Below, one piece after another: positions 11,142 through 44,426 of a stretch of DNA of 64,000 nucleotides (its first letter is position 1; each line of letters begins with the position of its first letter). A program made the position numbers and the translations under genes. Origin of the DNA: a virus. Where the stretch lies: IMG/VR virus record IMGVR_UViG_3300035666_000002; one strand, given 5' to 3'. The notes beneath the pieces were generated by a model, which saw nothing but the letters and a program-made list of their open reading frames with translations, was not told the DNA's origin and ran no database searches.

Positions 11142-12295
11142 TTTAGTACCTTATTCAGTCTAGTGAAATGTCTACCTCCATCAAAAGTAGTATTCAACCA
11201 AATATCAATCATCTTAGTAAACATATTTTCATCAACATATTTTGATGGAATTGCGAAGTGATTGGCACAATTGTGTTTTATTGCATATTCAGCAGTAAAC
11301 TCATCAAAAGTCAAAGCGGAGATTAATCCTTCACAGTGATTTGCTGCGATATTAACACCCTGCCCAGACCTACAAAAAGAAATACCATAATCACAATCAT
11401 TATTATTGATTAATCTAGCTGATTGACTTACATAATCAAAATAATCACATGGCTTATTTACATATGTTCCAACATCAATAACTGGTAAATTTCTATTTAT
11501 CAGAAGCTTTTTAGCAATCTCTTTCATTTCATATCCAGAATGATCGCAAGCTAATGCAATAGGTTTTTCTCCAAATCTAGAGATAACTCTTTTACAGAAA
11601 AACTCAAATGTTTCTGGTGTCCCAAGAATATGCATTTTCTCTGTATTTTCAGCAGTAACATGTAGATTATCACGAATCATTAAATTGTACATTGGTGCAA
11701 TATAGAATTCATTTTTGACCAACATATTCTTTTCGATGACTTCTCGCCCATACTTCAAAAACATTTTACCGCTTTTAAAGTAGTAGAGACCCACATTAGC
11801 TTCTTGTGATATGACTTCTTTTTCGACAACCCTGGTCACTTTTCCAAATTCATCTTTTTCTGTATAACTATGATCTGGGCTATTAGCCAAGAATGTTAAG
11901 AGAAAACCATCAGACTTTTCATCGATGGTTGCAGGATCAAACACAGGTTCAAAATAAACATCTGGTGTATAAATGAAGAGAGGTAAATCGTTATCAATAT
12001 AGTTTTCAGCAAGAACACAGGTTTCAAGTGCTCCTCTAGTTACTTTGTCGACCACAAAGATTTGAATGTCGGATCCGAATTTCTTTTTTAAAATTCTATC
12101 AATACTGAAATTGTAGATATGATCCAATCTAACAATAAAAATTAGATTGCATTCTCTAGTATTGATCGATGATAATGACCAATCAATAACGTGTTTGTGT
12201 TTTGCTAAAATCAGAGGCTTGGGCATTGTATAGCCAGCATCCAAAAATCTCTGTGCTTTACCAGCAATAGGTAGTAACAAATTATACTTTTTCAT
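11138..12295 (-). CDS. Sugar-phosphate nucleotidyltransferase fused to an RpiB-family sugar-phosphate isomerase
   Basis: N-terminal PIAGKAQRF...PKPLI, EK and ANVGLYYF; C-terminal ACDHSG, FCRSGQG..IAAN, HNCAN and FDGGRH. Confidence 0.85.
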   Translation of the reverse strand: MKKYNLLLPIAGKAQRFLDAGYTMPKPLILAKHKHVIDWSLSSINTRECNLIFIVRLDHIYNFSIDRILKKKFGSDIQIFVVDKVTRGALETCVLAENYIDNDLPLFIYTPDVYFEPVFDPATIDEKSDGFLLTFLANSPDHSYTEKDEFGKVTRVVEKEVISQEANVGLYYFKSGKMFLKYGREVIEKNMLVKNEFYIAPMYNLMIRDNLHVTAENTEKMHILGTPETFEFFCKRVISRFGEKPIALACDHSGYEMKEIAKKLLINRNLPVIDVGTYVNKPCDYFDYVSQSARLINNNDCDYGISFCRSGQGVNIAANHCEGLISALTFDEFTAEYAIKHNCANHFAIPSKYVDENMFTKMIDIWLNTTFDGGRHFTRLNKVLK

Positions 12296-12968
12296 TATAT
12301 TTCCTAATCATATTCGAAGTAAAAATGCAGGCATTCTGAATCGCATCTTCTTCAGTTAAATTCATATAGTATAGAGAATACAGAACGCCGGCAGCAAACA
12401 TATCACCCGCACCCAACACATTTGCATTTTTAACTATCATATTTTGCGGTATATTGTATGTATATTTGTTTTCTCTGCTTATATAATCACAACCATATTT
12501 TGTGTGAAAGAATACTCCTCTCTTAATATTACTGACTAGAAAATCTACATTCTGACAATCTTCATCAGAAACAAAGATGTAATCTAATAATTTAATTAGA
12601 TCCTGATCCTTCATTTCTTTACCTTTACAGGTATCAGCAGTTAAAACTCCTTCTAAAAAAGGAATCATTTGTAAATTCTCAAGTTCATTAATATACATGA
12701 AATGGTGAACTCTAGAATTAAGTAGTTTGATTGGTGTGATTAAATGCTCGTTCAAACTTGCAACAGAACTTCGATTGTTTTTCGATCTTTCTATGAAAAT
12801 ATCAGCATATCCCAAAGTCATAGGTGATATTCCTATTTGCAAGCCATTATCAATCTCATTAAAGGCACGAACGGTATTCGCTATGCCTCCTAGATTCATT
12901 GTATTAAAATCGCCATCAAAGATATTATCTACAACTAATTGCCCATAAATTGCAAAATCAAACATCAA
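12282..12968 (-). CDS. PfkB/ribokinase-family carbohydrate kinase
   Basis: C-terminal NVLGAGDMFAAG signature. Confidence 0.75.
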   Translation of the reverse strand: MMFDFAIYGQLVVDNIFDGDFNTMNLGGIANTVRAFNEIDNGLQIGISPMTLGYADIFIERSKNNRSSVASLNEHLITPIKLLNSRVHHFMYINELENLQMIPFLEGVLTADTCKGKEMKDQDLIKLLDYIFVSDEDCQNVDFLVSNIKRGVFFHTKYGCDYISRENKYTYNIPQNMIVKNANVLGAGDMFAAGVLYSLYYMNLTEEDAIQNACIFTSNMIRKYNEKV

Positions 12969-13501
12969 AACTTCTCTTTTTTATCTAATTCATAAACTCG
13001 ATTCAAATGTTCTTTTAAATCGTAAGGAGGTATCATATCTTTAGTAGTAAGGTATTCATACAATTCAGATATTAAATTATTACCGCCATTGTTTTTCAAA
13101 ACGATACAAATATTCTTCAATTCATTTACCGCATCAAATGGGCAAAACTTATATCCTATTAAAGACATCAATCCATAATCGAAAATATCATCACCAACAA
13201 AAAGAATTTCGTCTGAATTCACACCATACTCCTGACATATTTCATTCAAGTAATCTGCTTTGTCGGTGTGAGTTCCATTCTGACGATTGACTATAACATC
13301 AATCTTTCTATTTTCTGCGATTGAAACATTAAAAGGATCACCAGTTAAGAATATGACATTAATTCCTTGTGCTCTAAATCTCTTAATTGCAGTCCAATCT
13401 TTATCACAAAAAGTTTTTAATCTGACAGTTCCATCTCTATCATAATACTTCTTACCATCAGTTAAAACTCCATCAACATCAAGAATTATCAGTTTTATCA
13501 T
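12965..13501 (-). CDS. KdsC/YrbI-like HAD phosphatase
   Basis: LDVDGVLTDG, TG, K and VGDDIFD HAD motifs. Confidence 0.85.
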   Translation of the reverse strand: MIKLIILDVDGVLTDGKKYYDRDGTVRLKTFCDKDWTAIKRFRAQGINVIFLTGDPFNVSIAENRKIDVIVNRQNGTHTDKADYLNEICQEYGVNSDEILFVGDDIFDYGLMSLIGYKFCPFDAVNELKNICIVLKNNGGNNLISELYEYLTTKDMIPPYDLKEHLNRVYELDKKEKF

Positions 13502-32990: not shown

Positions 32991-33362
32991 TCATTTATCA
33001 ACAGAATACAGTATATCATGTTCATACAAAAACATCAAGCAACACATAGCGTGTGCTAGGTGATGTTTACCAGATTCGGGGTCTAGTTTCTCATTTTCTT
33101 TCCATGCCCACAAATGTCGTTGTAGTGCATCAAAATACCTACGCTTAGAATCTGGCACCAATTTCCAATTGTCACGCTCATACTTTTGAGCACCAAATGT
33201 CAATACATCAACGGTAGCTTTGAGTGCAAGAGGAGGAAGAAGCCCATATTCTAATTTACTACCATCAAACTTTCTACCACCTTCAGTGGCTACTTGTGAA
33301 CGAGCAACTTCATCCATGACATTAGTAGACTCAAAAAGTTCATATTGATCATCTTTCATCAT
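32991..33362 (-). CDS. dATP/dGTP diphosphohydrolase domain protein (DUF5664-like)
   Basis: GRKFDGSK, VLTFGAQKY..NW, A..RH, DPESG..HLAHA. Confidence 0.85.
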   Translation of the reverse strand: MMKDDQYELFESTNVMDEVARSQVATEGGRKFDGSKLEYGLLPPLALKATVDVLTFGAQKYERDNWKLVPDSKRRYFDALQRHLWAWKENEKLDPESGKHHLAHAMCCLMFLYEHDILYSVDK

Positions 33363-34174
33363 AGTCTCCCAGTAAGTTCAGCAATCTTAGGCATATTGCC
33401 AGTGAAAGGATATGTTCCAATATGCTGAGTTCTCATCCAAGGGCACAAATAGATTTGACCTCCGATCTTTCTCCACAATTGACAAAACATATAGTCTTCA
33501 GAAAGATAACGGTCAGAACCACCACCTGTTGCACTCTCTTTAGTGTCGATGATAGTGTCAAAGTATGCATGAATATATCGTGAGCCATCGAAGTGTGCCT
33601 GCCCAACGTGATCTGGTTTGTATCGAAGTTGTGGATAAGCTTTCTCCATCTGTTCGAATACATGCCGCTTGATCAACATGAATCCAGTACCAATCTCTAG
33701 AACTTCTAGAGGATCAGTGACAGTGAATTGTTGAGTTCCTTTTACCACATTGAATACATAATCGCCAACAAGATTTTCTAATTCACCTGGGTTCATATCT
33801 GGATGTTTTCTTGCAGCTTCAGCAATATTAGCCCAGTTGATTGATTTTTTCGGATATGGACCACCAATCACGTCCTTATCTAGTGCTAGAAGAGCAATTA
33901 CATCTTGAGGATTGTAATGAATATCAGAATCGATAAACAATAGATGGGTACAATCTGAACGGAGAAATTCATCTGTTAGATAATTTCTAGCTCTGGTGAT
34001 CAAAGATTCGTTGAACAGAAATGAAAATCTTGTTTCGACTCCATACTTTGACATAATACCTTGAAGATCAAGACAAGACTTCACATACATGCCATGAGCC
34101 ATGCCACCATACATGGGTGTTGCAATAAACAGTTTGCTTTTTTTCAAGTCATCAATTTTTACTTTAATTTCCAT
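33359..34174 (-). CDS. GT-A-fold glycosyltransferase-like protein
   Basis: ATPMYGG, ESLITRARN, FIDSDI, GTGFM, SEDY.FC and H.G. Confidence 0.7.
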   Translation of the reverse strand: MEIKVKIDDLKKSKLFIATPMYGGMAHGMYVKSCLDLQGIMSKYGVETRFSFLFNESLITRARNYLTDEFLRSDCTHLLFIDSDIHYNPQDVIALLALDKDVIGGPYPKKSINWANIAEAARKHPDMNPGELENLVGDYVFNVVKGTQQFTVTDPLEVLEIGTGFMLIKRHVFEQMEKAYPQLRYKPDHVGQAHFDGSRYIHAYFDTIIDTKESATGGGSDRYLSEDYMFCQLWRKIGGQIYLCPWMRTQHIGTYPFTGNMPKIAELTGRL

Positions 34175-35852: not shown

Positions 35853-38072
35853 TCATACAGCGATTTGCTGAATGAATTTGTTAACGAACACTCGGCTAAT
35901 TTGCTTTTTAACATTAGCCTTCAGAAAAGCTTTTTTGATTTGGCTAGTTTTGGCACCCTCTTGAATATCCAATTCATAATCTTCAGCAGCAAGATTCGAA
36001 TCACCAGGAACGAAATAGAATTTTGAGTAGCCTTTGTTATTCGATTCGAGATGTTTATTCTCACGAACAATTTTTTGCAACTCTTTGCATTTTTCTTTAA
36101 TTTCAAAGAAACGATTTTCAAACAATTCTTGAATATGTTTTCCGTTTTCATCATGATAACGCCGAAAAATCGCTTCACGGGTTTCATGTTGATTGCCAGT
36201 AATATAGAAACCGATAATTTTTGAATCAGTAACTTTGGAGTACCAACTCAAAACAGATTCGAAAAGTTTATCACCTACAACATCGAATTGAAGTTTATTT
36301 TTCTTATCAGTCAAAACAACATTTTGTTTTTCAGAATTAAAAATTTTATAATGCTTATCTAGATTGTAACAGTGAATATTATCGGCATCGCCATCATGAA
36401 TCAGAATTGTATTTACAATATCCAGATTGTTCATCTTACGAAAATCATTAGTCAAAGGTTCGAGAGCAACCATTGCTTCAATCAAAGGAGTATTGGACAA
36501 TTCTTCAGAATAGGGGCGAAAAATAGTTCGCGAGTAACGACCACCATAAGAGTTCGATAGCGCAAGAACATTCTTCATACAGCGAGTGTATTCGGAAGCT
36601 TTCATATTTGAATTCAAATACTCTCGCAAGTAAACATGAGTCAAATACAATTCTTTATCGTTGGAAGAAAATCCGTTCAAACCCATACCCTCATTCGGAA
36701 AATCAACATTACGACAAGCAACATTATTTCCGAAACCGTACACCACAAAAGGAATATTAACTTTGCGACAGAATGCGGTCAAAATTAGAACTTGCTCAAG
36801 TGCATGTTTCATACAGTTGATCATCGATCCTGACCGATCAAACATGATAACGATACCATGAGACTTACCTTTTGGAACTTTTGTAAGTTTACGGAAAAGA
36901 TTATCTTCAATTTGATATTTGTAGATACGATTTACATCGATATCGCCAGTCTCAGAAATTTTCTGTTTGGAGAACTTCGATGCAGATTTACGCATCTCAA
37001 ATTCTTTGGCTAACAAACTAATGTAACGGTCATTTTTATTCTTAAACTCGGTATAATACTCAGAAATTTTCTGTTGAATTTCTTCATGAGTCCAACATGC
37101 ATTCATCAACTCATGGACACGCTTATATGGAGTAACGATTTTGTTTAGAATTGGTTTAGGAATATCAACATAAACATAGTCGCGACTTTCTTTCGAAAGC
37201 AACTTTGATTCATTATTGCGAAAAGCTTCATCTGTAACACAAACGGGTTCGAAGTTGCGCTCGCCAGAAAAAGGTGACGATTCTTTGAATCGATTTAGAA
37301 TATATTCATCATTCTCGGTCGATTCTTCTCCATCACCATCATCGGACTTGCGAGACTTGTTAGAGATATCGGAACTTTCCTCCGACTCATCTTCTTCCTC
37401 ATCACCATAATCATCAAAATCAAAATCATCACCGAAGTCAGAATCATCCATATCTTCGAACGAAGAGGAGATTTTCTTCATCTGCTCCTGCATCAATTCT
37501 TTTTGTTCTTCCTTCGAGTAATCATAGATGGCACCAGTTACACGAACAACATCTTCCCAAGTTTCACAAGATTCGACCTGAGAAACGAGAATTTGCTCTT
37601 CATCAGTAAAGGTAATACCTTGATTAACACCAGCTTTGGTGTACAAATTCAATCGATCAATGAAAGGCATATCATCAATCTTTCGATCTTTAATGCCAAA
37701 AAAATCCTTATCGATCAAGCTTTGATAAGCCTTAACAAAGGAAGGGCGAAGACCAGGGTAGCGCCGCTTGATTTTTTTCTCGATACGAGAATCTTCAACC
37801 ACATTCAAAAAGTGCTTGAAGTTTTTATTGAACTTGCCAGTTCCCATGACTGCATTATGCCAGCCCTCTTCTGGAGTTTCTAATGCATGACCGACTTCGT
37901 GACCTAGAAGAAGATCATAAAGTTCACCAGACATATTTTCCCAGATAGGGCAGTAGAGTGTGCGATTCTTCAAATCGAACATAGCCGTTTGAATCTTTTG
38001 ATGTTCGACTCGGATGTTCTCACTAGCCATAAGCTTGGCTAGTTGAGATTTAGATTCTTGGGTGAATTGCAT
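35853..38072 (-). CDS. CobT-like protein: metallopeptidase-like N-domain + acidic linker + vWA domain
   Basis: HEVGHAL, NVVED.RIE, DRSGSM MIDAS, TPL and DGD. Confidence 0.85.
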   Translation of the reverse strand: MQFTQESKSQLAKLMASENIRVEHQKIQTAMFDLKNRTLYCPIWENMSGELYDLLLGHEVGHALETPEEGWHNAVMGTGKFNKNFKHFLNVVEDSRIEKKIKRRYPGLRPSFVKAYQSLIDKDFFGIKDRKIDDMPFIDRLNLYTKAGVNQGITFTDEEQILVSQVESCETWEDVVRVTGAIYDYSKEEQKELMQEQMKKISSSFEDMDDSDFGDDFDFDDYGDEEEDESEESSDISNKSRKSDDGDGEESTENDEYILNRFKESSPFSGERNFEPVCVTDEAFRNNESKLLSKESRDYVYVDIPKPILNKIVTPYKRVHELMNACWTHEEIQQKISEYYTEFKNKNDRYISLLAKEFEMRKSASKFSKQKISETGDIDVNRIYKYQIEDNLFRKLTKVPKGKSHGIVIMFDRSGSMINCMKHALEQVLILTAFCRKVNIPFVVYGFGNNVACRNVDFPNEGMGLNGFSSNDKELYLTHVYLREYLNSNMKASEYTRCMKNVLALSNSYGGRYSRTIFRPYSEELSNTPLIEAMVALEPLTNDFRKMNNLDIVNTILIHDGDADNIHCYNLDKHYKIFNSEKQNVVLTDKKNKLQFDVVGDKLFESVLSWYSKVTDSKIIGFYITGNQHETREAIFRRYHDENGKHIQELFENRFFEIKEKCKELQKIVRENKHLESNNKGYSKFYFVPGDSNLAAEDYELDIQEGAKTSQIKKAFLKANVKKQISRVFVNKFIQQIAV

Positions 38073-38096: not shown

Positions 38097-38146
38097 ATTC
38101 TACACAGTTCAGAATGCTTTGTCAACACTGTTGTAAAAATACAACA
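38097..38146 (-). promoter_or_regulatory. Sigma70 promoter plus upstream palindrome TGTTG-N8-CAACA
   Basis: TTGACA-17-TAGAAT; palindrome at 38129-38146. Confidence 0.75.
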
Positions 38147-39475
38147 CTATCGTCCTACTTGATTCAGGTACTTATCTTTTGTTTCTTCCCAAGTCATGTA
38201 AATGAGGTCATCATAAAATAAGGTTTCATCTGACACTTTTTCTTTCTTCTTCAGAAAACCGATTCGTCCTCTTGCATGTTTTTCTTTCCAGATTTTGACC
38301 AATGCTTCGGTGCTGCTATCAAAAGTCTTTTTCATATCTTCGAACTTGCATTCTTTTCTGAGAAAATCAGAAGTCTTATCGTACAGAGGTGTAAAATAAA
38401 TTCCTCGCGCATGTTCAGAGCGAACTAATTCTTTTGGTACACCCATCTTTGAGTAGGTAAAGTTCAGCGACCGATTCTTGTGGTCTCTTTTAAAAGGTTG
38501 ACCAGCAGGATTGGTTGCCACATACCATTCAAAATATCTTTGCGTATGATTTACTTTCAACCATTGCTCAATGTCTTTACGTGTTTTCTTGCTTGGTTCA
38601 AAAGAAACAGAACCAGCAGTGAAGCCCATAGGCTTCCAATGATCCAGATTATCATACTGGCTCAGACCGTTTGCTTTTGTTTTACCATAGAGAGAAGTTG
38701 TTGTGACACCAACAAGCTTATCACCATAAACTTTTTCCCATAGATGCTGAACTTCATCAGACAAACAAAGCAGTGCTAGAAGTTTACCACCCACATAGTT
38801 ATAACCTAGAGGCTGAAAAGGAACAATGGTCGAACCGATTGCAGTATGATTAATCATTCGACCTTGTGTTTTGATTTCTCTCGACCAACCGATAAAACTA
38901 TCTCTTGGTGTTAGATCGAGAAAGTCGGATGAAATACAAATAACACCGAGATATTTTTTTGATGTACGATCTTTAACAAAGAAGTTCAGATTTCTTCCGA
39001 TGTTGCTGTTATTCTTCATCGTTGAGATGAATGTGCGAGCGGTGTTCCAATACTCAGGAAGATTCGATCTTTTTATTTTGATATCGACAGTATCACCATC
39101 AACAGTTTCTTTCTGAATGATTGTTGAATCATCTGTCCATTCAAGATATGGATCAAGACTCATATAATCATCCGGGCTAGTTGGCTTCCAGATATTCGAT
39201 TTAATGTGATCGATCATATCACCTTGTTCAGGATTCACAAGTTGTTTTTCCGAACCAAAGAGAGTATTCGTTTCTACAACGGGATATTTTTCTTGGACTT
39301 CACACCATTTTTGATAGAGAGTATACTCTTTAACGTCCATTTGTGAAACATAGGACAGTTCACGAATAACTCTTTCGGTCAGTTCTTTTTCATCAATCGT
39401 CTGGAAAGACTCGGAAGGATTAGCTTCCGACCATTCTTTCCATTGTCTCTTAACATCATCAGTCCAATTTTCCAT
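38147..39475 (-). CDS. DUF4338 / Druantia DruA-like protein
   Basis: GR...F.V.D, LG.I, RD..IGW, P.QPLGYN..GGKLLA, TTTSLYG.....SQY and G.T.G. Confidence 0.7.
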   Translation of the reverse strand: MENWTDDVKRQWKEWSEANPSESFQTIDEKELTERVIRELSYVSQMDVKEYTLYQKWCEVQEKYPVVETNTLFGSEKQLVNPEQGDMIDHIKSNIWKPTSPDDYMSLDPYLEWTDDSTIIQKETVDGDTVDIKIKRSNLPEYWNTARTFISTMKNNSNIGRNLNFFVKDRTSKKYLGVICISSDFLDLTPRDSFIGWSREIKTQGRMINHTAIGSTIVPFQPLGYNYVGGKLLALLCLSDEVQHLWEKVYGDKLVGVTTTSLYGKTKANGLSQYDNLDHWKPMGFTAGSVSFEPSKKTRKDIEQWLKVNHTQRYFEWYVATNPAGQPFKRDHKNRSLNFTYSKMGVPKELVRSEHARGIYFTPLYDKTSDFLRKECKFEDMKKTFDSSTEALVKIWKEKHARGRIGFLKKKEKVSDETLFYDDLIYMTWEETKDKYLNQVGR

Positions 39476-40462
39476 TCAATTTCCTATGATTTGATTCAAT
39501 CTCTCAGAGAATCTTTCGTAATACCACTCTTCAGAATATTGCTTACTAATATAATTTAGGAAAACTTTTTCTTTATATTTTTCAATCTCTGGTATTTTAC
39601 TATAAAGTTCTTCAACAGAAGAAACTCTCTGCCAAGGATCAGCGACTAGAGTGTTGTCTTCATCATAGTTTTTCCATACAAAAGGAAAAATATCACAAGC
39701 GATAGCTTCATGATATCGACTCGTAGTTGCTTTACTATCAAGCCAATTAAAACAAAGAGTAGACTTACCTTCTTCCAAGATGGGAACCAGATTATACATC
39801 GAATCAATTTTTTTGTCAGGTACAATTGAGTTGTACTTGCCGATAAAGTAGGAAGATATTTTGTTATCTTTTTTAATGCGTTTGAAAACTGTATGTCTCT
39901 CATCTCCACTTTCGATGTTATCAATCAGTTTTCTTTTGTCGCATCCCCAATAAACAAAATCATAATTTCTTTCAGTTTCAAACAGTTTGATACCTCGTCT
40001 TTGTCGGATAAAAAAGTATTTCATTCCGTGAAGACCACCAGGAATATCCATCTCATCAAAAGTAGAAAACTTTCCTATCAGATGCCCAGCAAAAGTTCTT
40101 TTTCGATACAGTTCTTCATTGTCTGCTCGGTCACTACGCACAATTACAACATGTTTATTGTGAAGATGACCTCCAATTTGATTTACAAATTCATCCGATC
40201 TTTCTTTGTGTCTTTGGTCAACATAACCTTTGATGTGTTGAAAAAATTCATTCTCACTGGGAATCAAAATGACATCAGAATCAGCAATGTCATCTAGTTT
40301 TTTTCTATTAGCGGCACCCCAGCCGAAATTACAAACACCATAATCGTGTTGAGGGTTTCGTACCATATACTCTTTGAAAAGATAATAGAAAGAATCCATA
40401 ATATCATGGAGAGGTTCTTTGTAATTAGTACCGCTTCGCAATCTAGCAATAGTCAATTTCAT
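39476..40462 (-). CDS. T4 beta-glucosyltransferase-like GT-B enzyme
   Basis: YDFVYWG...SGDER and TTSRYHEAIACD.....YD......PWQRVSSVEEL align by eye to recalled BGT motifs DVIYGG..RSGQR and TLRVWETMASD...FD...FYVNNRAEL. Confidence 0.6.
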   Translation of the reverse strand: MKLTIARLRSGTNYKEPLHDIMDSFYYLFKEYMVRNPQHDYGVCNFGWGAANRKKLDDIADSDVILIPSENEFFQHIKGYVDQRHKERSDEFVNQIGGHLHNKHVVIVRSDRADNEELYRKRTFAGHLIGKFSTFDEMDIPGGLHGMKYFFIRQRRGIKLFETERNYDFVYWGCDKRKLIDNIESGDERHTVFKRIKKDNKISSYFIGKYNSIVPDKKIDSMYNLVPILEEGKSTLCFNWLDSKATTSRYHEAIACDIFPFVWKNYDEDNTLVADPWQRVSSVEELYSKIPEIEKYKEKVFLNYISKQYSEEWYYERFSERLNQIIGN

Positions 40463-41046
40463 CGTTTGGACTTTTTAATTCGATTAATTAATTTCACTTG
40501 TTTATCTTTAGCCATCTTTAATGCAAGAGGACCTACATGCTCAGTGTAAACTATTCCATTCATGTGGTCAAGTTCATGTTGAAAAACGTGGGCTGTAATA
40601 CCATCAAAAATTTCATTACGCAATTTTCCGGTTTCATCATTAAATTCCACTTCGATTTTCTGATATCTAGGTACATACAAAAACAAACCAGGATAAGATA
40701 AACATCCTTCTCTCATCTTAACTGGATCGCCATGCTTTTCGGTGATTCTAGGATTGAAGCAGACGATTTGCTCTTCTGGGCTACCCATAACAAAGACGCG
40801 GAACTTATAGCCACATTGATTGGCTGATAAACCTAACCCGCTATTGTCAACCATAGTTCTTTTCAGTCGCTTAATAAAGGTTTGAATTTCTGGTGTTGTA
40901 ATTTGATCAACATCGAATTCAGACAACTGCTCTGAAAGAACTTTCACATTTTCGTTAAAATTATGAAAGATAGGTAGAGGCTCAATAGGAGCCGGTTGCG
41001 TCACCCTAGTTGGTGATGTATTAATAACTAGATATTCGTCACTCAT
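40459..41046 (-). CDS. def: Peptide deformylase
   Basis: GLGLSANQ, EGCLS and QHELDH. Confidence 0.95.
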   Translation of the reverse strand: MSDEYLVINTSPTRVTQPAPIEPLPIFHNFNENVKVLSEQLSEFDVDQITTPEIQTFIKRLKRTMVDNSGLGLSANQCGYKFRVFVMGSPEEQIVCFNPRITEKHGDPVKMREGCLSYPGLFLYVPRYQKIEVEFNDETGKLRNEIFDGITAHVFQHELDHMNGIVYTEHVGPLALKMAKDKQVKLINRIKKSKR

Positions 41047-41215
41047 CTATCCATTCCTCTGCAAAATCTTCAGCTTGTTGTTCGGTATAAAAAAATTCAG
41101 TTTTCAAAAAATTAGTTTGTTTATCGTGGCAAAGGACCATGAATCGAACACAGTCATCTACACGATATATTTTTGTGATTTTAGTATCACCATAGTATAC
41201 ACTTAACTCTATCAC
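41039..41215 (-). CDS. Small hypothetical protein (58 aa, not in ORF track)
   Basis: GTG start overlapping the gp46 stop; MIELSVYYGD...EQQAEDFAEEWIDE fills the gap exactly. Confidence 0.65.
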   Translation of the reverse strand: MIELSVYYGDTKITKIYRVDDCVRFMVLCHDKQTNFLKTEFFYTEQQAEDFAEEWIDE

Positions 41216-42924
41216 ATTACTATCCTTGAGAAATTATTTACCTTTTCAAATCGTATCATATTCCTAAATTTGTCTTGTAAGATATCTCCTTTGTGTGAGA
41301 TAACAAACAGGTTAACATCCTCAAGCATATGCAAAATTTGCATCAAGTATTCAGTTCCATTTGTATCCAAAGAAGAATCGAAAACCTCATCTAGAATCAG
41401 AAGATTTGTATTGGCGGAGTTCTTTAACTTAGCCACAGCGCGCCAAGTCAACATCAGTGCCATGTCGATTCGCTGTTTCTCACCTTCACTGAATGAAGCA
41501 TAACTAAATTCGTCCCTATGCCTAGATTTTATTGTCTCTTTAAATGATTCATCAAGATTAAAATTAACAAAGAAATCTAAAGAAGACAAATTTTTATTCA
41601 CAAGTTTGTTTATAATAGGTAGGTATTGTTTAATAATCTTAGTTTTGATTCCAGTATCTTTCAAAAGAATCGATGCGGTTTCAAGATAATTCTTATCTTC
41701 TATAAGAGTCTTTTTTGTTTCTTCCAATACAGCAATTTCTTGTTGTATGGCTTTCAATTTAAATTCATCTTCTTCAATATCTTTTGTATCATTCTTCAGC
41801 GATTCAATTTCTTTCTTCAGTTTTTGAATATACTTCATAGACTGATTGATTGACATAGAATTGGATGCAGTTTGTATCTGTAAGTCTTGAACTTCTTTCG
41901 AGACAGAATTTATTTCTTTCAATCTATCTTGAGTAGTTTTTATCTGGAAAGATATTTGTTCAAGACCTTTTTTCAATTGATCTTCTTTTTCTTCCAATGT
42001 TTTAATTTGATCTTGTTTAAACCCTTCCTGAATGACCTGCTTACAAGTTGGGCACGAATCATTCAGACAGAAAAAATCTTTATCTTTTTTATGCTTAGAA
42101 AGATTTGTTTCAATTTTTGTTTCGTACTGAAAAAGTTTCTTCGAAGTATTTTCGGTAGTGTCTTTATCTAGAATTGAATTCTGAAGAGATAATACTTTTT
42201 CTGACAGTTCGATTCCAACTTGTTGGAGATCATTAATTTGTTTTTGTGTTGCATCAATCTCTTGCTGTTTTTTATCAATCAGATCAGTATTATTTTGCTG
42301 TAGTTTGTTTACATGTTCTTGCTGAAGTTCCAGAAGTGCTTCTTTTTTCTCTATAGAATTTCTAACAATCTGTAGCTCATCTTTGTTGTTCGAAATCTTT
42401 TCTTTCAATACATTATTCATAGTTGAAAAGATTTGAATGTCCAACAAGTCTTCAATAATCGCTCGTCTGTCAGCAGCAGAAAGTTGCATGAAAGGTGTGA
42501 ACGATGCGCTACCTAAAATTACAATTTGTGTAAATGATTTGTAATTCAGTTTCAGTATCACCTTTTCAAGGTGTTCTTGATAATCTTTTGATGCTGCATC
42601 TTGATTTAATAGATCACCATCAATATAAATTTCAAAGATGTTCGGCTTCATTCCTCGAACGATTCTGAAATCTTTACTACCAATAGAAAATTCACACTCA
42701 ACCAAACAATCTTTTTGATTGATAGAGTTGACTAACTGAGGTTTATTGATATTTCTAAATGCTTTTCCAAATAGAACAAAACACAATGCATCAAGCATTG
42801 TGGATTTACCAGCACCATTTGAGCCTACTACAAGCGTATTTGTATTACGACAGAGATTTATTTCTGTGAAGTAGTTGCCTGTAGAGAGAAAGTTTTTAAA
42901 TTTAAGAGTCTTAAAAAATATCAT
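41212..42924 (-). CDS. gp46: Recombination ATPase gp46 (Rad50/SbcC-like)
   Basis: GSNGAGKST, CPTC zinc hook, FSEGEK and LILDE. Confidence 0.97.
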   Translation of the reverse strand: MIFFKTLKFKNFLSTGNYFTEINLCRNTNTLVVGSNGAGKSTMLDALCFVLFGKAFRNINKPQLVNSINQKDCLVECEFSIGSKDFRIVRGMKPNIFEIYIDGDLLNQDAASKDYQEHLEKVILKLNYKSFTQIVILGSASFTPFMQLSAADRRAIIEDLLDIQIFSTMNNVLKEKISNNKDELQIVRNSIEKKEALLELQQEHVNKLQQNNTDLIDKKQQEIDATQKQINDLQQVGIELSEKVLSLQNSILDKDTTENTSKKLFQYETKIETNLSKHKKDKDFFCLNDSCPTCKQVIQEGFKQDQIKTLEEKEDQLKKGLEQISFQIKTTQDRLKEINSVSKEVQDLQIQTASNSMSINQSMKYIQKLKKEIESLKNDTKDIEEDEFKLKAIQQEIAVLEETKKTLIEDKNYLETASILLKDTGIKTKIIKQYLPIINKLVNKNLSSLDFFVNFNLDESFKETIKSRHRDEFSYASFSEGEKQRIDMALMLTWRAVAKLKNSANTNLLILDEVFDSSLDTNGTEYLMQILHMLEDVNLFVISHKGDILQDKFRNMIRFEKVNNFSRIVM

Positions 42925-43991
42925 TCTGTAGTTTCAATAGTCAAAGATTCAACATAAAGTTCTCGCATTAAATTTTTCAGTTTATTACCATCAATATTTA
43001 ATGATGCACCATCAATATATTTTGATAGAATCGTCATGGTATCTTCAGCTTGATCGACCAATTCTTCATCATCAGTTGATTCGAATTCCATAACGTCTTC
43101 AACAATAGACAAATCAGATACTCCCACTTTATAAAGTTCATTGACAACAGTATCAAATAGGAAAGAATTCTTTTTGTTGCAAACAACTATCTTAACATAA
43201 GTGTCTTTGTATTGCCCATAATCAAAAGACTTCCAGTGATCGAAGTCTTCTTTGCTGTCATCATAGTATATTTTATGAAACATTTTATATGGATTTTCAA
43301 CAAATGTCAAATCCCTATTTTCAGTGTCGAAAACGTGAAAGCCTCTTCTATCTCCTTGATCAGCCCAAGTAATTTCATATTGATTGCCCAAATAATAAAC
43401 GGTGCCGTCATTTGACTTATGGTGAAAATGACCAGAAAGAACCAGATCAAATCTATCGAAAACATTTCGTTCTATCCCTGTATGGCAAATATTGCCTCTG
43501 TCCATTTCGAAACCGGATATCTCAAAGTGCCCAAAAACAACTTGACTTTTTGTATTCTCAAGAAATCGCATCGACTCTTCGTAATTGGAAGAATTGATCC
43601 AAGGCACTAGAGAGATTGAAAGATCATCATAGTTTTTATCTAGAGGTGAAATATAAACATTGATGTTATCATAATGATTGAACAATTCGTGTATTGCATT
43701 TATTTCATTGGTATTTTTGTATGTTACATCATGATTGCCAACAATTACATCCATAGTTATGTTTTCACGAACCAGCACATCAAAAAATCTTTTTCTCCAT
43801 TGATTCAGTATCACATAGTTAATAAATTTTCTTCTATCAACAACATCACCCAAATGAACGATATGTTTGATGTTATGCTCTTTCAAATAAGGAAAGAATA
43901 CATTTTCCCAAAACTTGAAGAAAAATTCATTAAACAAGAGGCTGTCTCCTCTCGCTCCAGCATGAGTATCATTTATAAGTGCAATTCGCAT
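42921..43991 (-). CDS. gp47: Recombination nuclease gp47 (Mre11/SbcD-like)
   Basis: DTHAG, GDVVD, GNHD and SGHFH. Confidence 0.96.
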   Translation of the reverse strand: MRIALINDTHAGARGDSLLFNEFFFKFWENVFFPYLKEHNIKHIVHLGDVVDRRKFINYVILNQWRKRFFDVLVRENITMDVIVGNHDVTYKNTNEINAIHELFNHYDNINVYISPLDKNYDDLSISLVPWINSSNYEESMRFLENTKSQVVFGHFEISGFEMDRGNICHTGIERNVFDRFDLVLSGHFHHKSNDGTVYYLGNQYEITWADQGDRRGFHVFDTENRDLTFVENPYKMFHKIYYDDSKEDFDHWKSFDYGQYKDTYVKIVVCNKKNSFLFDTVVNELYKVGVSDLSIVEDVMEFESTDDEELVDQAEDTMTILSKYIDGASLNIDGNKLKNLMRELYVESLTIETTE

Positions 43992-43997
43992 TAATAC

Positions 43998-44426
43998 TTA
44001 CCATTTATCTTTAATAGATTCAGCTTCTTGTACACGTTTGCGAAGTTCGGTTGTAGAGAAACTGTGTCTTCTTTTATTATAGAAGATCGGCATATTCATT
44101 TCTTTCCCGGTAAAAGTTTTATCCCGATATTCTTCACCAACAATTCTAACATCAATTGGATAAGAATTCAAGATGTCTATGAGGTCTTTTTCCGTAGCAT
44201 ATACAACAATTTCATCAATATACTTGCAAGCCTGAAGTTGAACGTATCTTTCAAATATTGATTGTATAGGTTTGTTCTTTTCTGACCTGTCCAATGTTGG
44301 ATCGGTTTGCAATCCAACAATCAGATAATCACATTGTTCTTTTGCATCTTTTAACATCATGATATGCCCAGCATGAAATAAATCAAATGTTGAGCAAGTG
44401 AATCCTACTTTCAAATCATCCTTCAT
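43998..44426 (-). CDS. TagD-like (glycerol-3-phosphate) cytidylyltransferase
   Basis: FDLFHAGH, LIVGLQTD and R.H..STT. Confidence 0.85.
   Translation of the reverse strand: MKDDLKVGFTCSTFDLFHAGHIMMLKDAKEQCDYLIVGLQTDPTLDRSEKNKPIQSIFERYVQLQACKYIDEIVVYATEKDLIDILNSYPIDVRIVGEEYRDKTFTGKEMNMPIFYNKRRHSFSTTELRKRVQEAESIKDKW

What the first reader, a model, noticed from the sequence alone, without database searches (positions are those of the whole stretch)
38147..40462. BGT-like glycosyltransferase coupled to a DUF4338/DruA-like gene: putative DNA hypermodification or anti-defence module
Seen: the two ORFs abut with no gap (39475/39476), just downstream of gp47-gp46-def. The first aligns by eye with T4 beta-glucosyltransferase C-domain motifs; the second has DruA-like motifs. 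Known: BGT glucosylates hmC in DNA, and DruA belongs to the type I Druantia anti-phage system. Inference: DUF4338 may be a GNAT/Mom-like base-modifying enzyme working with the GT to install a new modification, or a defence component repurposed by the phage. No other dru genes are present.
Basis: partly seen in the sequence, partly recalled or inferred. Interest (0 to 1): 0.74.

Follow-up and report, generated by a model that had tools for sequence, protein, structure and literature searches.

The report
BGT-like glycosyltransferase beside DruA-family gene
A T4-type phage related to the phages of SAR11 bacteria packs into one operon a small sugar-transferase distantly related to phage T4's DNA-glucosylating enzyme and a DruA-family (GNAT-fold, weakly Mom-like) enzyme; both probably modify nucleic acid, but related phages show they are separate modules, not an obligate pair.

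Summary
On the minus strand, a 328-aa ORF (39476-40462) ends TGA directly before the ATG of a 442-aa ORF (38147-39475). Both lie in the chain gp47-gp46-58aa-PDF-GT-DruA.

The "coupled module" reading fails. Of 71 relatives with the DruA gene and enough upstream DNA, 65 lack the GT and have PDF overlapping DruA directly. Mosig and cyanophage S-SSM7 have DruA but no GT. Distant GT relatives sit beside cupin-type hydroxylases and a PLP-like gene, never DruA.

I read this as two independent, probably nucleic-acid-modifying enzymes, with the GT an accessory cassette. Earlier notes of this scan, unchecked here, report DruA-family genes in other T4-like phages, often with a mini tRNA-Gly. None is in this window. 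Acceptor, donor and product are unknown.

The parts
42921..43991 (-). gp47-like recombination nuclease subunit (SbcD type); first gene of the overlapping chain
   Evidence: Metallophos E 7e-9. Syntenic with gp47 in HTVC008M and Mosig.
41212..42924 (-). gp46-like SbcC/Rad50-type ATPase
   Evidence: AAA_23 and SMC_N matches. Overlaps the gp47 gene by 4 nt.
41039..41215 (-). 58-aa ORF (GTG start) bridging gp46 and PDF, overlapping both; no family
   Evidence: ORF list, sequence, no Pfam hit.
40459..41046 (-). Peptide deformylase. In most relatives this gene overlaps the DruA gene directly.
   Evidence: Pep_deformylase E 4.8e-38. ATGA overlap with the GT start. PDF-DruA median gap is -1 nt in 57 relatives without the GT.
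39476..40462 (-). BGT-like compact GT-B glycosyltransferase (P0002, 328 aa); an accessory cassette inserted between PDF and DruA
38147..39475 (-). DruA/DUF4338-family protein (P0001, 442 aa): acidic N-terminal extension (1-135, pI 4.3) plus basic GNAT-like core (about 136-442)
38129..38146 (-). Short AT-rich hairpin (7-bp stem, 4-nt loop) directly after the DruA stop codon; possible end of the transcription unit
   Evidence: Read from the sequence. Not reported by the terminator scan, so it is weak.
38097..38125 (-). Sigma-70-like promoter TTGACA-17-TAGAAT in front of the next gene (phrog_459 peptidase, 35853-38072)
   Evidence: 11 of 12 consensus matches. A consensus match only; the region as a whole has no more such matches than shuffled sequence.

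Best explanation
The locus holds two separate enzymes that probably act on nucleic acid. They are co-transcribed, and probably translationally coupled, within the phage's DNA-metabolism operon gp47-gp46-58aa-PDF-GT-DruA.

(1) P0002 is a minimal GT-B glycosyltransferase and a distant relative of T4 beta-glucosyltransferase (CAZy GT63). It keeps the nucleotide-sugar-binding Arg/Glu motif of BGT and an invariant acidic residue after strand 4, where BGT has its catalytic Asp100. Its N-terminal (acceptor) domain is basic. I infer that it transfers a sugar from a nucleotide-sugar onto phage DNA after replication, probably onto a hydroxyl-bearing base. Acceptor and sugar are unknown. It is an accessory cassette, inserted between PDF and DruA in a minority of relatives and gained or lost several times.

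(2) P0001 is a phage-lineage DruA/DUF4338 protein: a GNAT-fold transferase whose nearest, weakly matched solved relative is Mu Mom. I infer that it transfers an acyl or aminoacyl group onto DNA or RNA. It is the conserved gene of the locus, normally overlapping PDF, and it works without the GT.

Shown here: gene structure, homology, fold and distribution. Inferred: substrates, chemistry and biological role, probably protection of phage DNA from host nucleases.
For: GT identity:
- The model is very confident.
- The family profile finds only BGT among 177,635 PDB sequences (E 2.5e-4), with R249/E252 on BGT R269/E272. hhalign gives E 1.7e-4 over the C-domain.
- Language-model features and the Atlas fold search both reach viral PF09198 clusters (score 0.96; TM 0.70 over 298 residues).
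- R189, R249 and E252 are invariant and D111 is D or E in 41/41. The N-domain has pI 8.9.

GT link to DNA:
- Family member P0324 is fused to ParB_N and an N6/N4 DNA methylase.
- The gene sits among replication and recombination genes.

DruA identity:
- PF14236, the PADLOC DruA model and annotated plasmid DruA genes all match.
- The core motifs are conserved from phage to bacterial DruA.
- An exhaustive fold search gives only GNAT-superfamily rows, with Mom 8bv8 first. Foldseek's weak hits are all GNATs too.
- DUF4338 was called a GNAT in PMC10853773. A cyanophage homologue was annotated Mom-like from its structure in PMC12801897.
- A ParB_N-DruA fusion exists (L056). Cyanophage copies lie between the clamp-loader genes gp44 and gp62.

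Independence of the two genes:
- 65 of 71 relatives lack the GT, and in these PDF and DruA overlap.
- The DruA tree needs 3 to 6 changes of GT presence.
- Mosig and S-SSM7 have no GT-family gene.
- Loci with distant GT relatives hold no DruA.
Against: - No enzyme that would make a hydroxylated base is evident. HTVC008M (GT+) and Mosig have no ThyA-type hydroxymethylase. The window has no Asp/Arg-hydroxylase, JmjC or PLP-like partner.
- P0002 does not reach Pfam PF09198 even at E 1. Part of its high Z may come from both proteins being minimal GT-B enzymes.
- The GT family's recurrent partners (Asp_Arg_Hydrox, JmjC) belong to families that mostly hydroxylate proteins.
- SAR11 hosts rarely carry restriction-modification systems (PMC7029224), which weakens an anti-restriction rationale.
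- Nothing here shows any modification of the DNA.
Confidence: 0.55

Rival explanations
1. One reading: the DruA-like GNAT and the GT act in sequence in one hypermodification pathway. For example, the GNAT puts an acyl or aminoacyl group (possibly hydroxyl-bearing) on a base and the GT glycosylates it.
For: There is no intergenic base and translational coupling is probable. In the window's subclade the GT always sits directly before DruA. No other acceptor-generating enzyme was found in the window. Both families have ParB_N fusions, pointing to DNA as a common substrate.
Against: 65 of 71 DruA-bearing relatives lack the GT. Mosig and S-SSM7 lack it genome-wide. GT presence changes 3 to 6 times on the DruA tree. 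Distant GT-family members occur with hydroxylase and PLP-like genes and without DruA. In HTVC008M a JmjC/cupin gene lies between the two. Adjacency follows simply from insertion into a fixed PDF-DruA junction.
Confidence: 0.12
2. The GT does not act on DNA. It glycosylates a protein (possibly a hydroxylated residue), a host envelope component or a small molecule.
For: Its family's conserved partners are Asp_Arg_Hydrox and JmjC/cupin oxygenases, which typically hydroxylate proteins. A weak share of family members hits Glyco_trans_1_2 (10 of 41, best E 4e-4). PMC7029224 argues that pelagimyophage GTs modify the host surface, and notes that R-M is rare in SAR11. Scan notes on the same genome, not checked by me, report a collagen-fibre operon with hydroxylases and GTs.
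Against: The similarity is specific to the DNA enzyme BGT by structure, sequence profile and language-model features. One member is fused to ParB_N and a DNA methylase. The gene is in the DNA-metabolism operon. The N-domain is basic.
Confidence: 0.25
3. The DruA-like gene is a captured Druantia component used as a decoy or inhibitor (anti-defence by mimicry), not an enzyme.
For: It is truly homologous to DruA of type I Druantia. The pelagiphage lineage has an extra acidic N-terminal region (pI 4.3).
Against: The GNAT-type core residues are invariant across phage and bacterial members, which argues for retained catalysis. The family comprises thousands of phage clusters fixed in replication and DNA-metabolism modules. 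No other dru gene is among the neighbours identified.
Confidence: 0.08

Closest known systems
T4 beta-glucosyltransferase (BGT; CAZy GT63; Pfam PF09198; PDB 1qkj, 1nzd)
   Different: Only 10-13% identity. No PF09198 match. The related complete genomes have no dCMP hydroxymethylase, so the acceptor cannot be assumed to be 5-hmC. The sugar donor is unknown. Distant members are linked to cupin-type hydroxylases and a PLP-like protein, which T4 lacks.
T4 alpha-glucosyltransferase (AGT; PDB 1y8z, 1xv5)
   Different: It is larger (400 aa) and scores lower than BGT. hhalign is not significant (probability 8%).
Phage 5mYOX/TET-dependent DNA glycosyltransferases (Pyle et al., bioRxiv 10.1101/2023.12.21.572611) and base J JBP+JGT
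   Same: The logic 'oxygenase makes a hydroxyl on a base, then a GT adds sugar' matches the GT family's recurrent pairing with 2OG/cupin oxygenases.
   Different: The oxygenases here are Asp_Arg_Hydrox or JmjC types, not TET/JBP. None is in this window. No C5-methyltransferase was looked for in the window. The Tet_JBP search was uninformative because no control genome matched.
DruA of type I Druantia (Pfam PF14236 / DUF4338)
   Same: True homologue: Pfam and PADLOC models match. Identity is 22-25% over 90% of the core to annotated plasmid DruA. Invariant core residues are shared.
   Different: It is not in a druABCDE operon. It belongs to a large phage lineage with its own N-terminal extension and an invariant C-terminal Arg. 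The function of bacterial DruA is itself unknown.
Mom of phage Mu (Pfam PF25680; PDB 8bv8; PMC13219725)
   Different: There is no significant sequence or profile similarity. The catalytic residues R111, S124, D149 and R151 could not be mapped. The model quality is poor. The donor and target are unknown.

Membership tests
T4 BGT family (GT63 / PF09198) | Compact GT-B fold (two Rossmann-like domains, about 350 aa) superposable on BGT | tested here: met
T4 BGT family (GT63 / PF09198) | Match to the Pfam model PF09198 at its gathering score | tested here: not met
   No hit for P0002 at E 0.1. None of 41 family members hits it at E 1.
T4 BGT family (GT63 / PF09198) | UDP-binding Arg/Glu motif of the C-domain (BGT R269, E272; R191/R195) | tested here: met
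   The profile alignment puts R249/E252 on R269/E272. hhalign places K176/R177 and R189 at or within one position of R191 and R195. R189, R249 and E252 are invariant in 41/41.
T4 BGT family (GT63 / PF09198) | Catalytic base equivalent to BGT Asp100 | tested here: inconclusive
   D111 is D or E in 41/41 and D114 is D in 39/41, both in the loop after strand 104-109. No residue-level superposition or significant N-domain sequence alignment was obtained.
T4 BGT family (GT63 / PF09198) | 5-hydroxymethylcytosine acceptor made by a phage dCMP hydroxymethylase | tested here: inconclusive
   No Thymidylat_synt-family gene in the complete genomes of HTVC008M (GT+) or Mosig. The window's own genome is not held beyond 64 kb.
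T4 BGT family (GT63 / PF09198) | Glucosylation of DNA | not testable with these tools
   Needs nucleoside LC-MS or an enzyme assay.
DruA / DUF4338 (PF14236) | Match to the family models above threshold | tested here: met
   PF14236 at 73.7 bits against a cut-off of 27. PADLOC PDLC00002 E 1.3e-17. tblastn to annotated DruA at E 1e-9 to 3e-10.
Type I Druantia system | DruA encoded with DruB, DruC, DruD and the DruE helicase in one operon | tested here: not met
   The neighbours are PDF, GT, phrog_459 peptidase, CobS, gp46 and gp47. The same context without dru genes is seen in more than 100 related contigs.
Mom family (PF25680) | Match to Mom-family sequence models | tested here: not met
   No PF25680 hit for P0001. 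BLASTP is not significant. hhalign gives E 0.46 and 0.044 at about 1% probability. My own Mom HMM finds nothing in the window.
Mom family (PF25680) | GNAT fold closest to Mom, with an HTH-like insertion | tested here: inconclusive
Mom family (PF25680) | Aminoacyl-tRNA (Gly-tRNA-Gly) as donor and adenine N6 in dsDNA as acceptor | not testable with these tools
   Biochemistry as in PMC13219725 is needed. No tRNA gene lies in the window.

The most novel reading that the evidence does not exclude
The BGT-like family is a third, undescribed route to glycosylated phage DNA. In this route a cupin-type oxygenase (Asp/Arg-hydroxylase or JmjC class) and a PLP-like enzyme prepare the acceptor, rather than a dCMP hydroxymethylase or TET/JBP. 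In this phage clade the cassette has been dropped next to a Mom-like DruA enzyme, so the DNA carries two independent hypermodifications, or the GT glycosylates a hydroxyl-bearing aminoacyl group installed by DruA.
Probability: 0.15. Interest if true: 0.85.

Novelty: new variant of a known kind. Interest (0 to 1): 0.5.

Why it matters
If the GT acts on DNA, it marks a family of T4-BGT relatives in abundant aquatic myophages that lack the T4 hydroxymethylcytosine pathway. The family holds about 130 clusters at 50% identity and Pfam does not detect it. That would imply an unknown acceptor base and probably a new DNA hypermodification.

The family's conserved partners (Asp/Arg-hydroxylase or JmjC, plus a PLP-like protein) give a concrete gene set that can be rebuilt in E. 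coli.

The DruA-family gene is one of the most widespread unexplained genes in marine T4-like phages, with thousands of clusters. It shares ancestry with a component of the Druantia defence system whose function is also unknown, so finding its chemistry would inform both sides.

The cultured phages HTVC008M (GT+, DruA+) and Mosig (GT-, DruA+) provide a ready natural comparison.

Tried and rejected
- The structure prediction of the DruA-like protein used a 23-sequence alignment of two clades and gave a poor model (pLDDT 58.6). Foldseek against the PDB then found nothing at E <= 0.001.
- Sequence links between DUF4338 and Mom were sought by BLASTP, Pfam, hhalign (profile against sequence and profile against profile) and my own HMM. 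None was significant.
- A mini tRNA-Gly next to DruA was reported by earlier scan notes in other phages. ARAGORN and Rfam find no tRNA anywhere in the window, and the 74-nt gap after DruA holds only a hairpin and a promoter-like site.
- Partners of the distant GT relatives were sought in the window with tblastn and custom HMMs: Asp/Arg hydroxylase, PLP-like protein and HTVC008M's JmjC gp105. None was found. Ten further mid-sized window ORFs scanned with Pfam held no oxygenase.
- The Tet_JBP (PF12851) search of related genomes found nothing, but no control genome matched either, so it is uninformative.
- The window's own assembly is not held, so the rest of the genome could not be searched.
- The genome-contig scan with the DruA alignment returned mostly phage-like contigs binned into MAGs, not bacterial Druantia loci.
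- Complex prediction was not run. I do not claim that the two proteins bind, and the distribution data already argue against obligate partnership.
Full report
**What is there.** The window is part of a T4-type myophage whose nearest cultured relatives are the Pelagibacter phages HTVC008M and Mosig EXVC030M (66-68% DNA identity locally). All genes around the finding lie on the minus strand. They form an unbroken chain:
- gp47 (42921-43991)
- gp46 (41212-42924)
- a 58-aa ORF (41039-41215)
- peptide deformylase, PDF (40459-41046)
- a 328-aa ORF, P0002 (39476-40462)
- a 442-aa ORF, P0001 (38147-39475)

PDF and P0002 overlap by ATGA. The TGA stop of P0002 is followed at once by the ATG of P0001. 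After P0001 come a short AT-rich hairpin and a TTGACA-17-TAGAAT promoter-like site in front of the next gene, a phrog_459 peptidase. The 'first' gene of the finding is the higher-coordinate one.

**The glycosyltransferase.** P0002 matches no Pfam family. It belongs to a small, almost purely viral family of 131 clusters at 50% identity. The family has invariant G173, R189, G208, C237, R249, E252 and P260. An AlphaFold2 model built from 41 family members is very confident (pLDDT 95.7, pTM 0.92) and shows a two-Rossmann GT-B fold.

Several lines tie it to T4 BGT in particular:
- Foldseek against the PDB ranks the two T4 DNA glucosyltransferases first (AGT 3.2e-7, BGT 3.4e-7). Other GT-B enzymes start at about 4e-5.
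- A profile of the family searched against all 177,635 distinct PDB sequences finds only BGT (E 2.5e-4). It aligns the motif T-x-R-Y-H-E-A with BGT T-L-R-V-W-E-T, so R249/E252 fall on the UDP-binding R269/E272.
- hhalign extends this over the whole C-domain (E 1.7e-4). It places K176/R177 and R189 at or within one position of BGT R191 and R195.
- Language-model features and the Atlas fold search both reach viral clusters that are 100% PF09198 (score 0.96; TM 0.70 over 298 residues).
- In BFVD one of the top three hits is annotated DNA beta-glucosyltransferase.

D111 is acidic in all 41 members and lies in the loop after strand 4. BGT has its catalytic Asp100 in this region, but I could not get a residue-level superposition. 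The N-terminal domain is basic (pI 8.9). No member reaches PF09198 itself. This is therefore a distinct family related to GT63, not a member of the Pfam family.

**What the GT family keeps company with.** One member, P0324 (808 aa), carries the GT region (28% identity, E 4e-26 to P0002) fused to a ParB_N domain and an N6/N4 DNA methylase domain. This is the strongest contextual hint that DNA is the substrate.

I looked up five distant family members. In all five the GT lies within a few genes of two partners: an Asp_Arg_Hydrox (PF05118) oxygenase, about 380 aa where complete, and a roughly 250-aa PLP-enzyme-like protein. These are L084, L085, L086, L087 and the contig of P0321. The partner proteins are mutually homologous. 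In HTVC008M the gene between the GT and DruA homologues is a JmjC/cupin protein (JmjC_2 E 1.8e-7). The recurrent partner of this GT family is therefore a cupin-type oxygenase, not DruA. This suggests a 'hydroxylate, then glycosylate' logic.

None of these partners is in the window. The complete genomes of HTVC008M and Mosig also lack a ThyA-type hydroxymethylase. The acceptor in this phage is unknown.

**The DruA-like gene.** P0001 matches PF14236 (E 1.8e-20, residues 143-373) and the PADLOC DruA model (E 1.3e-17). Its core also finds annotated 'Druantia anti-phage system protein DruA' genes on Pseudomonas, Ralstonia and Nitrosococcus plasmids (22-25% identity over 90% of the core). An alignment of pelagiphage-type, cyanophage-type and bacterial members keeps these residues invariant: G160, G177, R191, P222, G229-G230-K231, S261, Y274, G284 and W396. 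That pattern argues for a conserved catalytic core.

The phage lineage is very large, with over 3,500 and over 6,600 clusters at 90% identity found with the two queries. In cyanophages S-SSM7 and S-SCSM2R the gene lies between the clamp-loader genes gp44 and gp62. One member is fused to ParB_N (L056).

Three papers bear on this:
- DUF4338 was classed as a GNAT domain by Aravind's group (PMC10853773).
- A cyanophage homologue was annotated 'methylcarbamoylase mom' from a predicted structure (PMC12801897).
- Mom transfers glycine from Gly-tRNA-Gly to adenine N6 in dsDNA (PMC13219725).

No sequence or profile method links P0001 to Mom significantly. 'Works like Mom' is therefore a reasonable hypothesis, while 'is a Mom' is not established. 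The pelagiphage lineage adds an acidic N-terminal region (pI 4.3) to a basic core (pI 9.3-9.6).

**Are the two genes a functional pair?** In contigs found with the GT as query, the order gp47-gp46-PDF-GT-DruA-peptidase is constant. That sample is biased towards the GT.

I then seeded the search with the DruA family. Of 71 viral contigs with a 51-76% identical DruA homologue and at least 1.2 kb upstream, only 6 carry the GT. The other 65 lack it, mostly as gp47-gp46-PDF-DruA. In these, PDF and DruA overlap or abut (median gap -1 nt, n = 57).

On a tree of 82 distinct DruA sequences, GT presence needs six changes, of which at least three are forced by well-supported branches. This is a quick maximum-likelihood tree, because the careful search did not finish. 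The window's nearest DruA relative (L095, 73% identity) has no GT. The complete genomes of Mosig and S-SSM7 contain DruA but no GT-family gene (tblastn). The loci of distant GT relatives contain no DruA.

So the conserved linkage is PDF-DruA. The GT is an accessory cassette inserted precisely between them, and it has been gained or lost repeatedly. The zero-gap junction reflects tight operon packing, not a dedicated two-enzyme system.

**Interpretation.** The best reading (about 0.55) is that these are two independent enzymes, both probably acting on nucleic acid. One is a BGT-related glycosyltransferase that most likely glycosylates phage DNA on an unknown acceptor. The other is a GNAT-fold, possibly Mom-like, transferase that is the conserved gene of the locus.

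The main rival for the GT (about 0.25) is a non-DNA acceptor. This is suggested by its protein-hydroxylase-type partners and by the view in PMC7029224 that pelagimyophage GTs remodel the host surface. That paper also notes that SAR11 rarely has R-M systems. A decoy role for DruA keeps about 0.08.

**Relation to earlier notes of this scan.** The same stretch was flagged in an overlapping window (e1-5705720). Several follow-ups on other T4-like phages described DruA-family enzymes accompanied by a miniature tRNA-Gly and named Mom as the closest relative. I reached the Mom match independently but found no tRNA in this window. Notes on the same genome report a 27-tRNA array, including tRNA-Gly, about 70 kb past the window's end. 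I could not check this.

**Novelty and verdict.** The fold assignments are new for this gene pair but not new in kind. BGT-like GTs and Mom-like or DruA-like GNATs are known classes, and the DruA-Mom link in cyanophages is already in print. What is new is:
- a Pfam-invisible family related to BGT, in phages without an hmC pathway;
- that family's conserved partnership with cupin hydroxylases and a PLP-like protein;
- the demonstration that the GT is a mobile accessory cassette in a conserved PDF-DruA junction.

Interest is moderate (0.5). It would be high if nucleoside analysis reveals a new glycosylated base.

Noticed in passing
L084:5651-9932, L085:1623-4058, L086:3981-8602, L087:640-3505: Distant members of the GT family always lie near an Asp_Arg_Hydrox (PF05118) oxygenase (about 380 aa where complete) and a conserved PLP-enzyme-like protein of about 250 aa. 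In L084 the GT is fused to ParB_N and an N6/N4 DNA methylase. This trio looks like an undescribed modification cassette in its own right.
   Followed up: partly
L001:6939-7466 (HTVC008M gp105): The 175-aa 'hypothetical protein' between the GT and DruA homologues of HTVC008M is a JmjC_2/cupin protein (E 1.8e-7). It has no homologue in the window or in any other fetched locus.
   Followed up: partly
window 38147-41046 and loci L092-L170: In 57 relatives without the GT, peptide deformylase and the DruA-family gene overlap or abut (median gap -1 nt). This PDF-DruA coupling is the conserved feature of the locus and is unexplained. Mom uses aminoacyl-tRNA, so a link to translation chemistry is conceivable.
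   Followed up: partly
L056:1160-2914: A 584-aa protein fuses a ParB_N domain (E 5.4e-6) to a DruA/DUF4338 domain (E 1.1e-13). This supports a DNA-directed role for the family.
   Followed up: no
window 43998-44426 (-): A 142-aa cytidylyltransferase-like protein (CTP_transf_like, E 5e-17) lies directly upstream of gp47 on the same strand. It could be a nucleotidyltransferase for NAD or sugar-nucleotide synthesis, and so might supply a donor for the GT.
   Followed up: no
window 32991-34174 (-): A 271-aa protein has a borderline Anp1 (GT62, GT-A mannosyltransferase) match (E 1.3e-6, 28.5 bits against a cut-off of 28.8). Next to it is a dGTP_diPhyd_N (dATP/dGTP diphosphohydrolase N-terminal) protein (E 3.5e-33). 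Both lie just upstream of the gp45 sliding-clamp gene, so a second glycosyltransferase-like gene sits in the replication module.
   Followed up: no
window 12282-13501 (-): A HAD hydrolase (E 6e-9) and a weak PfkB-type sugar-kinase match (E 2.5e-4) lie side by side. They may be part of a sugar-nucleotide (heptose-type) pathway, as described for pelagimyophages in PMC7029224.
   Followed up: no
window 38147-39475 (P0001 residues 1-135 and C-terminus): The pelagiphage-type DruA proteins carry an acidic N-terminal extension of about 135 aa (pI 4.3) that the cyanophage-type proteins lack. Nearly all phage members end in an invariant Arg (...IIR or ...VGR) as the last residue.
   Followed up: no
L082:3938-4588 (Synechococcus phage DSL-LC03): A bona fide Mom-like gene (tblastn to Mu Mom, E 1e-4) exists in a Kyanoviridae cyanophage, next to a gene annotated as a type II restriction endonuclease. 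True Mom relatives and DruA-family genes are therefore separate lineages within these phages.
   Followed up: no
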